Virus record (IMG/VR): IMGVR_UViG_2695420871_000002
Coordinates: 1 to 7,936 of that record
Strand: one strand, 5' to 3'
DNA: 7,936 bases
DNA from: a virus
Taxonomy: Duplodnaviria; Heunggongvirae; Uroviricota; Caudoviricetes
Under the pieces are notes generated by a model. It was given only the letters and a program-made list of their open reading frames with translations. It did no database searches and was not told the origin of the DNA. Each line of letters starts with the position of its first letter. Position 1 is the stretch's first letter. Shown piece by piece: positions 2,040 to 2,550 of this stretch. The position numbers and the translations under genes are program-made.

Positions 2040-2093
2040 TAAACAACAAAAAACCCGCCGAAACGCTGAGAGATCACAGCGATGGGCGGGTTA
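2040..2093 (-). terminator. Rho-independent terminator at the 3' end of the hok transcript
   Basis: Minus-strand read: AACCCGCC ... GGCGGGTT stem (plus 2052-2059 / 2085-2092) with an inner CGCTG/CAGCG helix, followed by TTTTTTGTTGTT (complement of plus 2040-2051). Confidence 0.45.
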
Positions 2094-2167
2094 AGTGCGG
2101 GTGCGTTGAGGATGCCTGACACATCAGAGGTGGGCGGGGATGGGATCAGCTCCCCGCCCGGTCACTC

Positions 2168-2323
2168 TTACTTCCTGGATTCGTAGTCTACGAAGACAGC
2201 GACCTCCGTCTGGCCGGTTCGGATTCGTACCTCACAGAGGTCTTTCCTCGTTACCAGTGCCGTCACTATGACGGTTAAACAGATGACGATCAGGGCGATT
2301 AACATCGCCTTTTGCTGCTTCAT
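2168..2323 (-). CDS. hok: Hok-family type I toxin (HokD/RelF-like), 51 aa
   Basis: MKQQKAMLIALIVICLTVIVTALVTRKDLCEVRIRTGQTEVAVF... matches the Hok/Gef membrane toxin family closely, HokD in particular. ATG at 2323 is preceded by AAGGAGAAG. The track ORF 2168..2380 adds 19 in-frame codons from an upstream ATG, a possible mok-like leader frame. Confidence 0.85.
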   Translation of the reverse strand: MKQQKAMLIALIVICLTVIVTALVTRKDLCEVRIRTGQTEVAVFVDYESRK

Positions 2324-2369
2324 AGCCTGCTTCTCCTTGCCTTTCGGCATGTAAGAGGCTAACCTACAT

Positions 2370-2440
2370 GTGCAAAGCATGAAATTGGCCTCAGATTAAT
2401 GTTAAGCGTCTTGCCGGACGCGTAATGTTAACTGGGGCTT
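2370..2440 (+). ncRNA. sok: Candidate Sok-like antisense RNA (boundaries approximate)
   Basis: Inferred by analogy: the minus-strand hok leader has R1 hok-like blocks as I recall them (CTTGAGGC near 2481-2488, GGCAGATAGAGAAAAGCCCC, AAGGAGAAG before hok). In hok/sok loci Sok is antisense to the mok initiation region. Plus strand carries a hairpin GCGTC-TTGCCG-GACGC (2406-2421). Neither promoter nor 3' end could be fixed from sequence. Confidence 0.3.
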
Positions 2441-2499
2441 TTCTCTATCTGCCTTTTGGTGTTCATGCCTGAAGCAGATAGCCTCAAGCACCCGCAGTC

Positions 2500-2529
2500 A
2501 TTCTACTTACCTCGCCAATATGAAATCAA
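2500..2529 (-). promoter_or_regulatory. Candidate hok promoter (-35 TTGATT, 18-nt spacer, -10 TAGAAT)
   Basis: Minus-strand read: TTGATT (plus 2524-2529), 18 nt, TAGAAT (plus 2500-2505). This puts the transcript start a few nt before CTTGAGGC, which matches the 5' end of R1 hok mRNA as I recall it. Confidence 0.35.
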
Positions 2530-2550
2530 TCAGAAAGGTGCCCCATAAAA

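What the first reader, a model, noticed from the sequence alone, without database searches (positions are those of the whole stretch)
2040..2530. Hok/Sok-type type I toxin-antitoxin locus with R1-like mRNA architecture
Besides the 51-aa Hok toxin, the minus-strand leader shows blocks resembling plasmid R1 hok mRNA as I recall it, a TTGATT/TAGAAT promoter, an in-frame upstream ATG (2380) that could be a mok-like coupling frame, a perfect 9-bp hairpin right after the stop (2133-2160, GGGCGGGGA/TCCCCGCCC), and a terminator. In R1 mok is in a different frame from hok, so the in-frame arrangement here may be a variant. The locus sits between the queH-like gene and the Q operon.
Basis: partly seen in the sequence, partly recalled or inferred. 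Interest (0 to 1): 0.5.

Follow-up and report, generated by a model that had tools for sequence, protein, structure and literature searches.

The report
Known hok/mok/sok toxin–antitoxin in prophage

Summary
Window 2529..2047 (minus strand) is a complete hok/mok/sok type I toxin-antitoxin locus. Rfam RF01794 matches 2493..2318 at 117 bits (cut-off 59). The 51-aa ORF matches Pfam HOK_GEF and PHROG "MokW-like host killing". The locus is about 91-92% identical to hokW/mokW/sokW of phage 933W/Sp5. Its Hok differs from the experimentally toxic HokW by one residue, and its Sok promoter hexamers are identical.

All R1-type mRNA elements are present. These are tac/fbi end-pairing (pair probability about 1, with U-A to C-G covariation in relatives), the metastable 5' hairpin, ucb (the anti-Shine-Dalgarno box), the mok Shine-Dalgarno sequence, dcb, and a terminator. 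The 9-bp hairpin after the stop sits where R1 has the protective 3' stem-loop of processed hok mRNA.

The in-frame mok is not a new variant. K-12 mokC and 933W mokW are annotated the same way. R1 differs only by a 58-nt rather than 57-nt offset, and both arrangements occur in this clade.

Related loci occur in 3813 of 5426 complete E. coli genomes, and RefSeq annotates this exact gene as hokD. The position between the replication genes and Q is typical of lambdoid phages. Verdict: observation confirmed, interpretation supported, already known, low interest.

The parts
2500..2529 (-). hok/mok promoter: -35 TTGATT (2529..2524), 18-nt spacer, -10 TAGAAT (2505..2500)
   Evidence: Found by the promoter scan. 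The -10 is conserved in relatives. The -35 is specific to this allele, because a 10-bp deletion relative to phage HannyBb removes the TTGGCG used there.
2047..2493 (-). Full-length hok (mok_hok) mRNA, about 447 nt. The 5' end is placed by the start of the Rfam model and the 3' end by the terminator; neither end is mapped.
   Evidence: Rfam RF01794 covers 2493..2318. The fold has MFE -189.6 kcal/mol and z = -8.5. The 9-nt complementarity 2488..2496/2096..2104 (I9) leaves open a start 1-3 nt further upstream.
2482..2493 (-). tac (translational activator element), GGGUGCUUGAGG, mRNA 1-12
   Evidence: Pairs with fbi at probability 0.97-1.0. Conserved in 31 loci, with covariation at position 4.
2465..2475 (-). 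Partner of tac in the metastable 5' hairpin (mRNA 19-29)
   Evidence: Nascent 35-nt and 113-nt transcripts fold tac onto this stretch. The role is taken from R1 (PMC9841398).
2434..2440 (-). ucb, the anti-Shine-Dalgarno box of mok: AAGCCCC, mRNA 54-60
   Evidence: Pairs with the mok Shine-Dalgarno sequence in the full-length fold. Pairs with tac in the Rfam consensus structure. It corresponds to R1 A70-C74.
2389..2392 (-). mok Shine-Dalgarno sequence GAGG, 8 nt before the mok ATG
   Evidence: G102 A103 G104 G105 are invariant in 31 loci. The homologous R1 positions G105/A106 gave loss-of-function mutations.
2168..2380 (-). mok: 70-codon leader frame, in frame with hok and sharing its stop codon
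   Evidence: ORF list. Same layout as mokW and mokC. 68 of 70 residues are identical to MokW.
2355..2359 (-). dcb (downstream complementary box), GCCUC, mRNA 135-139
   Evidence: Pairs with GAGGC of the mok Shine-Dalgarno region in the Rfam consensus and in the fold with tac/ucb enforced.
2333..2338 (-). hok Shine-Dalgarno sequence AAGGAG, 9 nt before the hok ATG
   Evidence: Read from the sequence. The CAAGGAG block is conserved and identical to R1.
2168..2323 (-). hok: 51-aa membrane toxin MKQQKAMLIALIVICLTVIVTALVTRKDLCEVRIRTGQTEVAVFVDYESRK
   Evidence: Pfam HOK_GEF 9.8e-23. PHROG 251 1.3e-32. 50 of 51 residues are identical to HokW. Annotated hokD (WP_014532198.1) in RefSeq.
2132..2159 (-). 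GC-rich hairpin 9 nt after the stop codon (9 bp, 10-nt loop); predicted 3'-terminal protective stem-loop of processed (truncated) hok mRNA
   Evidence: Exact inverted repeat. A hairpin is kept at this place in all relatives although its sequence differs. The R1 hairpin at 342..359, 10 nt after the stop, contains G345 and C358, whose mutation abolished truncated hok mRNA.
2099..2111 (-). fbi (fold-back inhibitory element), CCUCAACGCACCC, mRNA 383-395
   Evidence: Complementary to tac with one bulged C. It is the best partner of tac in the whole window apart from tac's own antisense. In relatives it lies 45-56 nt after the stop and carries compensatory changes.
2047..2092 (-). Intrinsic terminator of hok mRNA: 8-bp stem, inner hairpin, U-run
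   Evidence: I11. It carries a 23-nt loop insertion relative to K-12 hokD and HannyBb.
2337..2365 (+). Sok promoter: -35 TTGCCT (2337..2342), 17-nt spacer, -10 TAACCT (2360..2365)
   Evidence: Read from the sequence. The hexamers are identical to those of 933W sokW (one search lists no differences there). Primer YO-421 of PMC8621323 replaces TAGGTTA, the complement of this -10, to make the promoter-less sokW.
2372..2442 (+). Sok antisense RNA, about 71 nt: single-stranded 5' tail, long hairpin, U-rich 3' end; overlaps the mok start by 9 nt
   Evidence: Coordinates transferred from the annotated sokW of AF125520 through alignment A2. The fold has MFE -30.2 kcal/mol and z = -4.9.

Best explanation
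The locus is an intact hok/mok/sok type I toxin-antitoxin cassette of the hokW/hokD clade. It sits in the early rightward operon of a lambdoid prophage.

Proposed mechanism, by homology with plasmid R1 hok/sok and Sp5 hokW-sokW:
1. The minus strand gives a stable mRNA of about 447 nt.
2. While it is being made, the 5' tac element is held in a metastable hairpin.
3. In the finished RNA, tac pairs with fbi near the 3' end, and the mok Shine-Dalgarno sequence is sequestered by ucb. The RNA is then neither translated nor bound by Sok.
4. Slow 3' trimming back to the GC hairpin after the stop codon removes fbi.
5. tac can then pair with ucb. This frees the mok Shine-Dalgarno sequence and exposes the Sok target loop.
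6. Ribosomes reading mok through its first 19 codons open the hok initiation region, and the 51-aa membrane toxin is made.
7. This happens only if the unstable 71-nt Sok RNA, made from the plus strand, has not already paired over the mok start and sent the duplex to RNase III.

What is shown and what is inferred:
- Shown here by computation: the presence and conservation of every element, and the energetics of the fold switch.
- Shown experimentally for the closest relative: toxicity of HokW, antitoxin activity of sokW, and a role in promoting lysis and phage release on induction.
- Inferred: that this copy is expressed and behaves the same way.
For: Family identity:
- Rfam RF01794 at 117 bits against a cut-off of 59, full-length match.
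- Pfam HOK_GEF 9.8e-23 and PHROG 251 'MokW-like host killing' 1.3e-32.
- 91-92% nucleotide identity to the annotated mokW/hokW/sokW of 933W.
- Hok is 50/51 and Mok 68/70 identical to the 933W proteins.

mRNA architecture:
- tac-fbi pair probabilities are 0.97-1.0, and the full-length fold has z = -8.5.
- The closed form is 12.4 kcal/mol better than the open form in the full-length RNA, but only 1.6 kcal/mol better after truncation at the hairpin.
- Nascent transcripts form the metastable hairpin.

Covariation in 31 loci from Escherichia, Kluyvera, Photorhabdus, Pantoea and Citrobacter:
- 84.7% of cells are paired, against about 40% when the partners are slid.
- 35 pairs change on both sides; 0 of 500 shuffles reach this.
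- tac position 4 pairs as U-A in 17 loci and C-G in 11.

Sok:
- The promoter hexamers are identical to those of sokW, which is functional.
- The Sok fold has z = -4.9.

Published mechanism and function: PMC9841398 and PMC8621323.
Against: - Nothing here measures transcription, processing, toxicity or rescue for this copy.
- The hok -35 is not the one used by relatives, because of a 10-bp deletion, and it has an 18-nt spacer.
- The Sok -10 TAACCT matches the consensus at only 3 of 6 positions, and the promoter scan did not call it.
- The unconstrained fold of the truncated RNA keeps the mok Shine-Dalgarno sequence sequestered; the open form is 1.6 kcal/mol worse.
- NCBIfam Hok models score below their curated cut-offs (55 bits against 73).
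- The chromosomal loci hokA, hokB and hokC were reported unable to mediate post-segregational killing (summarised in bioRxiv 10.1101/2025.08.07.668861).
Confidence: 0.9

Rival explanations
1. The locus is a silent or decayed chromosomal copy, like K-12 hokA, hokC and hokE (disrupted by insertion sequences) or K-12 hokD (leader replaced by relBE). It would be recognisable by sequence but no longer regulated or toxic.
For: - Several K-12 hok loci are inactivated. The K-12-like hokD locus L010 lacks tac, and K-12 hokC has IS186 next to it and no proper fbi.
- This allele has three private indels: a 10-bp promoter deletion, a widened hairpin loop, and a 23-nt insertion in the terminator loop.
- Chromosomal loci failed post-segregational killing tests.
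Against: - Every regulatory element and both reading frames are intact, and no insertion sequence lies within or next to the locus.
- The three indels fall in a promoter spacer and in loops, not in paired or coding positions.
- Hok differs from the toxic HokW by one C-terminal residue.
- 42 of 45 diverse Hok homologues tested were toxic.
Confidence: 0.07
2. The cassette is active, but its role here is prophage maintenance or exclusion of other phages (abortive infection), not the lysis-assisting role reported for hokW-sokW.
For: - R1 hok/sok mediates post-segregational killing and, on a high-copy plasmid, reduces T4 plating.
- hok genes are enriched about four-fold in prophages.
Against: - The only experiments on a prophage-borne relative 91-92% identical to this locus showed no growth effect in the uninduced lysogen, and earlier growth arrest with about two-fold more released phage on induction.
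- hok is not enriched near defence systems (section heading).
- None of these roles was tested here, and they are not mutually exclusive.
Confidence: 0.3
3. The features are a chance assembly of a short hydrophobic ORF, hairpins and promoter-like hexamers.
For: Each hexamer match and short hairpin is individually weak. The promoter scan expects 0.7 sites per 800 nt by chance.
Against: - Rfam E 6.9e-27 and Pfam E 1e-22.
- More than 90% identity to an annotated and tested locus.
- Covariation across genera.
- Fold z-score of -8.5.
Confidence: 0.01

Closest known systems
hokW-mokW-sokW of Stx2 phage 933W / Sakai prophage Sp5 (AF125520; Takada et al. 2021, PMC8621323)
   Same: - 91-92% nucleotide identity from the mRNA start to fbi.
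- A 51-aa Hok (50/51 identical) and a 70-aa in-frame Mok (68/70 identical).
- Identical Sok promoter hexamers.
- The same 18-nt extension of the Sok hairpin (mRNA 71-88), which the Rfam consensus and the hokC clade lack.
- The same tac and fbi sequences.
   Different: - Hok has R50 where HokW has E50. Mok differs at N3C and V11M.
- Seven of the 35 differing alignment positions (substitutions and gaps) cluster in mRNA 107-121, which is the Sok 5' tail and the mok start.
- The loop of the post-stop hairpin is 10 nt rather than about 4.
- The promoter -35 and the terminator differ.
- The position in the phage differs. Here the locus lies between the replication genes and Q. In 933W it lies at the right end next to attR, on the strand of the int operon.
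hok/mok/sok of plasmid R1 and other IncF plasmids (the paradigm; Le Rhun et al. 2022, PMC9841398)
   Same: - All named elements occur in the same order and at nearly the same positions. The mok ATG is at +114 here and +116 in R1. The hok ATG is at +171 and +174.
- Mok is 70 codons, 19 of them upstream of hok.
- A GC hairpin lies 9-10 nt after the stop.
- fbi lies in the 3' UTR, downstream of the GC hairpin (mRNA 383-395 here, 389-396 in R1).

   Different: - Only 45% global nucleotide identity.
- mok is out of frame in R1 (58-nt offset) and in frame here (57 nt).
- The element is a plasmid rather than a prophage.
- HokW, 50/51 identical to this Hok, is reported 44% identical to R1 Hok.
E. coli K-12 hokD (relF) in the cryptic prophage Qin
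   Same: - The same gene name is given by RefSeq annotation.
- The coding sequence and 3' UTR are nearly identical, including fbi and the terminator stem.
- The downstream neighbour (rem) and the synteny towards ydfU and Q are the same.
   Different: - K-12 hokD has lost the whole leader (tac, ucb, mok start, sok), which is replaced by relBE. The window copy has all of it.
- The C-terminus is VDYESRK here and TAYEPEE in K-12 HokD.
E. coli K-12 hokC/mokC/sokC (gef)
   Same: In-frame mok sharing the hok stop codon, 19 codons upstream. The tac sequence is identical.
   Different: About 70% nucleotide identity in intact hokC-clade loci. It lacks the 18-nt extension of the Sok hairpin. The K-12 copy is disrupted downstream by IS186.

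Membership tests
[quoted passage not shown] | Small (about 50 aa) single-helix Hok/Gef toxin | tested here: met
   Pfam PF01848 HOK_GEF, E 9.8e-23, 79.9 bits against a cut-off of 22, profile positions 1-42 of 42. PHROG 251, E 1.3e-32.
[quoted passage not shown] | Conserved structured hok mRNA leader (Rfam RF01794 covariance model) | tested here: met
   117 bits against a gathering score of 59, model positions 1-157 of 157, on the minus strand. The model is in the hok-mRNA sense, so it supports the leader, not Sok transcription as such.
[quoted passage not shown] | mok leader frame with its own Shine-Dalgarno sequence, starting upstream of hok and reading across the hok initiation region | tested here: met
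   GAGG, 8 nt, then the ATG at 2380; 19 codons precede the hok ATG. The Shine-Dalgarno sequence is invariant and the ATG is at least 90% conserved in 31 loci.
[quoted passage not shown] | tac-fbi pairing between the 5' and 3' ends that locks the full-length mRNA | tested here: met
   12 pairs with one bulge at probability 0.97-1.0. Compensatory U-A to C-G and G-C to A-U changes at a constant distance from the stop codon.
[quoted passage not shown] | Alternative tac/ucb and Shine-Dalgarno/dcb pairing in the processed mRNA, plus a metastable 5' hairpin | tested here: met
   The Rfam consensus structure fits the window. With tac/ucb enforced, the truncated RNA is within 1.6 kcal/mol of its MFE, against 12.4 kcal/mol for the full-length RNA. 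The metastable hairpin forms in the 35-nt and 113-nt transcripts. All of this is computational.
[quoted passage not shown] | Cis-encoded antisense Sok gene with a promoter and terminator overlapping the mok start | tested here: met
   TTGCCT, 17 nt, TAACCT on the plus strand. The RNA is predicted as a 5' tail, a hairpin and a U-rich end, with z = -4.9. The hexamers are identical to those of sokW, which has been detected and mutated. This is sequence-level evidence only.
[quoted passage not shown] | Stable toxin mRNA, 3' processing, and an unstable antisense RNA | not testable with these tools
   Needs Northern blots with a rifampicin chase. The protective 3' hairpin is present.
[quoted passage not shown] | Hok is toxic and Sok rescues | not testable with these tools
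   Shown for HokW/sokW, whose Hok is 50/51 identical (PMC8621323). Not tested for this copy.
NCBIfam Hok models (NF007279 subfamily, NF007290 HokA) | Score above the curated cut-off | tested here: not met
   55.0 bits against 73, and 38.9 bits against 89. These models represent other Hok subgroups. RefSeq still names the identical protein HokD.
hokW/hokD clade of lambdoid prophages | 18-nt extension of the Sok hairpin, and high identity to hokW and hokD | tested here: met
   The insertion ACGCGUCCGGCAAGACGC is shared with 933W, HannyBb and L007-L016. L026 and L028 keep the extension with compensatory changes. It is absent from the hokC and Photorhabdus clades.

The most novel reading that the evidence does not exclude
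The locus may be placed so that phage induction itself triggers it. The idea is that antiterminated early transcription reads through hok in the sense direction and collides with the convergent Sok promoter. Sok would then disappear and Hok would be released.

The orientation fits:
- Here, in four lambdoid phages and in K-12 Qin, hok lies in and is co-oriented with the pR-type operon between the replication genes and Q.
- In 933W, hok becomes co-oriented with the pL/int operon only after excision and circularisation.

This would explain the unexplained RecA-dependent loss of sokW reported by Takada et al. 2021. I did not test it, and the strand bias of phage genes could produce the same orientation pattern by itself.
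Probability: 0.2. Interest if true: 0.4.

Novelty: already known. Interest (0 to 1): 0.1.

Why it matters
It matters little for discovery. The family has been the paradigm of type I toxin-antitoxin systems since the 1980s. It is reported in almost 80% of Enterobacteriaceae genomes and enriched in prophages (bioRxiv 10.1101/2025.08.07.668861). A relative 91-92% identical to this locus has been tested experimentally (PMC8621323).

The value of this check is annotation. RefSeq marks only the 51-aa hokD CDS in the identical prophage. The mok frame, the Sok RNA, tac, ucb, dcb, fbi and the protective hairpin can now be placed to the base.

The locus is also an intact counterpart of the truncated K-12 hokD. 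It could therefore be a convenient natural template for testing how induction activates prophage-borne hok loci.

Tried and rejected
- RNAduplex between 130 nt of upstream and 260 nt of downstream sequence gave sprawling duplexes that could not be interpreted. I replaced it with a 13-nt tac query.
- The energy-only shuffle test of tac against the 3' UTR is weak for such a GC-rich 13-mer: 12 of 2000 shuffles were as good. The argument therefore rests on position, pair probability and covariation.
- I first labelled mRNA 19-29 as 'ucb'. After reading PMC9841398 and checking the R1 numbering, I corrected this. That stretch is the metastable partner of tac, and ucb is AAGCCCC at mRNA 54-60.
- The unconstrained MFE of the truncated RNA does not open the mok Shine-Dalgarno sequence. 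Only the constrained comparison shows that the two states become nearly equal in energy.
- In alignment A2 the post-stop hairpin (helix 16) and the 3' half of tac-fbi are out of register in some rows, because of loop-length and bulge differences. This lowers their paired percentages. Per-sequence duplexes and visual inspection show the pairs are kept.
- The terminator scan found nothing, because it allows loops of at most 8 nt.
- NCBIfam models scored below their cut-offs.
- The leader of the downstream rem-like gene shows no fold signal (z = +0.6).
- I judged large protein-database searches and structure prediction unnecessary and did not run them.
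Full report
**What is in the sequence**

On the minus strand, a sigma-70-like promoter lies at 2529..2500 (TTGATT, 18 nt, TAGAAT). Seven bases downstream, Rfam RF01794 matches 2493..2318. The score is 117 bits against a gathering score of 59, E is 6.9e-27, and all 157 model positions are covered. It is the only Rfam hit in the 7.9-kb window even at E <= 1. The family is called 'sok', but the model is in the sense of the hok mRNA. It starts with the 5' GGGUGCUUGAGG and ends at the hok AUG. It therefore identifies the hok leader rather than proving antisense transcription.

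The ORF list gives a 70-aa frame from the ATG at 2380 to the stop at 2170..2168. An internal ATG at 2323 yields the 51-aa peptide. That peptide matches Pfam HOK_GEF (E 9.8e-23) and PHROG 251 'MokW-like host killing' (E 1.3e-32). A terminator follows at 2092..2047. It has an 8-bp stem, an inner hairpin and a U-run. The pattern scan missed it because its loop is 25 nt.

**It is a known locus**

- A 511-nt query matches 4713 of 5426 complete E. coli genomes. In 3813 of them the match covers at least 80% of the query, with a median of 2 places per genome.
- Two genomes are 100% identical over the query. In E. coli FDAARGOS_943 the CDS is annotated 'type I toxin-antitoxin system toxin HokD' (WP_014532198.1) inside a lambdoid prophage that is 99.4% identical to the window.
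- Seventy-nine phage records match. The 933W record AF125520 annotates mokW (213 nt), hokW (156 nt, same stop codon) and a 71-nt antisense sokW at the homologous place.
- From the mRNA start to fbi the window is 91.2% identical to 933W.
- Hok differs only at residue 50 (R here, E in HokW). Mok differs at N3C and V11M.

Takada et al. 2021 (PMC8621323) characterised hokW-sokW:
- HokW is toxic and localises to the inner membrane.
- sokW, expressed from its own promoter, neutralises it.
- sokW disappears after mitomycin C, and HokW is then made in a RecA-dependent way.
- Deleting the locus delays growth arrest and halves phage release.

Their primer YO-421 replaces TAGGTTA, the complement of the Sok -10 TAACCT(A). 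The window has the same sequence at 2360..2365. One search lists no differences between the window and 933W in either Sok promoter hexamer.

**The mRNA architecture**

The 447-nt transcript folds with MFE -189.6 kcal/mol and z = -8.5.

- *End-pairing.* Nucleotides 1-12 (tac, 2493..2482) pair with 383-395 (fbi, 2111..2099), with one bulged C. Pair probabilities are 0.97-1.0. Apart from tac's own antisense, fbi is the best partner of tac anywhere in the window on either strand.
- *Closed state.* In this fold the mok Shine-Dalgarno sequence GAGG (2392..2389) is paired with AAGCCCC (2440..2434). That stretch corresponds to the R1 ucb, or anti-Shine-Dalgarno box.
- *Nascent RNA.* Transcripts of 35 and 113 nt fold tac onto nucleotides 19-29, the metastable hairpin described for R1.
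- *The switch.* Enforcing tac/ucb costs 12.4 kcal/mol in the full-length RNA. It costs only 1.6 kcal/mol once the RNA is cut back to the hairpin after the stop codon. The enforced fold then forms the Shine-Dalgarno/dcb stem and the small hairpin with loop CUUUGCA, which carries the Sok target, as in the Rfam consensus.

These are thermodynamic predictions, not measurements.

**The hairpin after the stop codon**

In an R1-type IncF locus (L052), whose numbering matches Le Rhun et al. 2022, a GC hairpin lies at 342..359, 10 nt after the hok stop codon. Mutations G345A and C358A in it abolish the truncated hok mRNA. The authors interpret it as the terminal stem of processed hok mRNA that resists 3'-to-5' exonucleases.

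The window hairpin starts 9 nt after the stop codon, upstream of fbi. Every relative has a hairpin at this place although its sequence differs. For example, HannyBb has GGCGAGGGA/TCCCTCGCC, and most other loci have GGCGGGGA/TCCCCGCC. I therefore read it as the homologous protective stem-loop. It would define a processed RNA of about 365 nt that lacks fbi.

**Comparative support**

A scan of species-representative genomes gave 47 loci from Escherichia, Shigella, Kluyvera, Photorhabdus, Pantoea, Citrobacter and Erwinia.

- In every locus that retains a tac-like 5' element (L043 excepted, whose only match lay 28 nt before the ATG), the best partner of tac lies 45-56 nt after the stop codon. The K-12-like hokC locus L018, disrupted by IS186, is the other exception.
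- Substitutions there are compensated. GGGU.../...ACCC changes to GGGC.../...GCCC, and GAGG/CCUC changes to GAAG/CUUC.
- The window's MFE structure was counted on a 31-sequence alignment. 84.7% of cells are paired, against 38-44% when partners are slid by 1-3 columns. 35 pairs change on both sides, and 0 of 500 shuffles reach this. tac position 4 pairs as U-A in 17 loci, C-G in 11 and U-G in 1.
- The structure was derived from one of the aligned sequences, which inflates the paired percentage. The double changes are the informative part.

**The in-frame mok**

In the R1-type locus the mok ATG is 58 nt upstream of the hok ATG, so mok is out of frame. Here the distance is 57 nt, so mok is in frame. 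Both frames are 70 codons, with 19 codons before hok.

K-12 mokC/hokC and 933W mokW/hokW are annotated with shared stop codons. Most loci in the survey have the 19-codon in-frame extension. L009, L014 and L015 have the 58-nt out-of-frame form with a 68-codon mok.

Le Rhun et al. found that stop codons in mok suppress toxicity only when they lie upstream of the hok start. The frame relation downstream should therefore be mechanistically irrelevant. The arrangement is not a new variant.

**Sok**

On the plus strand, TTGCCT (2337..2342), a 17-nt spacer and TAACCT (2360..2365) precede a predicted RNA at 2372..2442. I transferred these coordinates from the annotated sokW. The RNA folds as a 9-nt free 5' tail, a long hairpin and a U-rich end, with MFE -30.2 kcal/mol and z = -4.9. 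It overlaps the mok start by 9 nt.

The hairpin carries an 18-nt extension (mRNA 71-88). The hokW/hokD clade shares it, and L026 and L028 keep it with compensatory changes. The hokC and Photorhabdus clades and the Rfam consensus lack it.

**Features private to this allele**

- A 10-bp deletion in the promoter region relative to HannyBb-type loci makes TTGATT the -35, with an 18-nt spacer.
- The loop of the post-stop hairpin is 10 nt rather than about 4.
- The terminator loop carries a 23-nt insertion relative to K-12 hokD and HannyBb.

All three changes lie in spacers or loops. None disrupts an element, but promoter strength could differ.

**Context**

All neighbouring genes are on the minus strand. 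In order they are:
- a Cro-like gene, an O-like gene, a DnaC-like gene, DUF977 and a zinc-ribbon protein;
- QueH, then hok, then a Rem homologue (68% identical to K-12 Rem);
- DUF1367, YbcO and a DUF1133/Q-like protein.

Only 21 nt separate the QueH stop codon from the hok -35. The same position between the replication genes and Q, and the same orientation, is seen in phages HannyBb, Tritos, vB_EcoS-689R5 and mEp460_ev081, and in K-12 Qin. In Qin, hokD has lost its leader to relBE.

In 933W the locus lies at the right end on the strand of int. It becomes co-directional with the leftward early operon only after circularisation. This prompts the untested idea that antiterminated early read-through silences the convergent Sok promoter on induction. 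That is the most novel reading my evidence leaves open, and I give it a probability of about 0.2.

**Verdict**

The locus is an already known kind, and effectively an already annotated gene. A close homologue has been characterised experimentally. What this check adds is a base-level map of the regulatory elements, the assignment of the post-stop hairpin, and the point that the in-frame mok is ordinary. Interest is low.

Noticed in passing
window 2364..2388 (mRNA 106-130): Among nine close relatives, this stretch is the most variable part of the hok leader. It covers the spacer between the mok Shine-Dalgarno sequence and the ATG, the first mok codons, and the complement of the Sok 5' tail. Seven of the 35 differing alignment positions (substitutions and gaps) between the window and 933W fall in mRNA 107-121. 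This could be neutral drift, or divergence of Sok specificity between co-resident loci. E. coli genomes carry a median of 2 and up to 9 related places.
   Followed up: partly
window 2180..2185 (Tyr47 codon TAC at 2185..2183): TACGAA at the end of hok is invariant in 31 loci across genera. It contains the TACG context in which TadA edits Tyr to Cys in hokB, hokC, hokD and hokE mRNAs; K-12 hokD is edited at 6% (PMC12214031). Editing here would create the second periplasmic cysteine. I did not test this.
   Followed up: partly
window 2000..2027 (-) and 1631..1918 (-): A second TTGATT/TAGAAT promoter-like site, with a 16-nt spacer, lies directly after the hok terminator. It precedes a 95-aa ORF that is 68% identical to K-12 Rem. 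The leader of about 80 nt is conserved with K-12 Qin and phage HannyBb but shows no fold signal (z = +0.6).
   Followed up: partly
window 2551..3237 (-): A full-length QueH (epoxyqueuosine reductase, PF02677, E 1.9e-65) is encoded in the prophage early operon directly upstream of hok. The same pairing occurs in phage HannyBb, where the QueH region is 95% identical in nucleotides. PHROG 3217 lists it as of unknown function.
   Followed up: no
window 5337..5375: A perfect (TCTTCC) x 6.5 repeat encodes a run of 12 glutamates in the O-like replication protein at 5120..5788(-). It is a candidate site of length variation.
   Followed up: no
window 7037..7080: A 23-nt direct repeat (GTTTTTCTACACAAAAAACTTAG, 1.9 copies, 86% match) lies just downstream of the cI-like repressor gene at 6575..6982.
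   Followed up: no
window 2096..2104 and 2488..2496: A perfect 9-nt complementarity, UGCGGGUGC with GCACCCGCA, extends the tac-fbi helix 3 nt upstream of the Rfam model start (I9). The real 5' end of hok mRNA may therefore lie 1-3 nt upstream of 2493.
   Followed up: no
L002/L054 (phage 933W, AF125520) compared with the window: hok is co-oriented with the early rightward operon here and in four lambdoid phages and K-12 Qin. In 933W it lies next to attR on the int strand, so it would lie downstream of the leftward early operon only after excision.
   Followed up: partly
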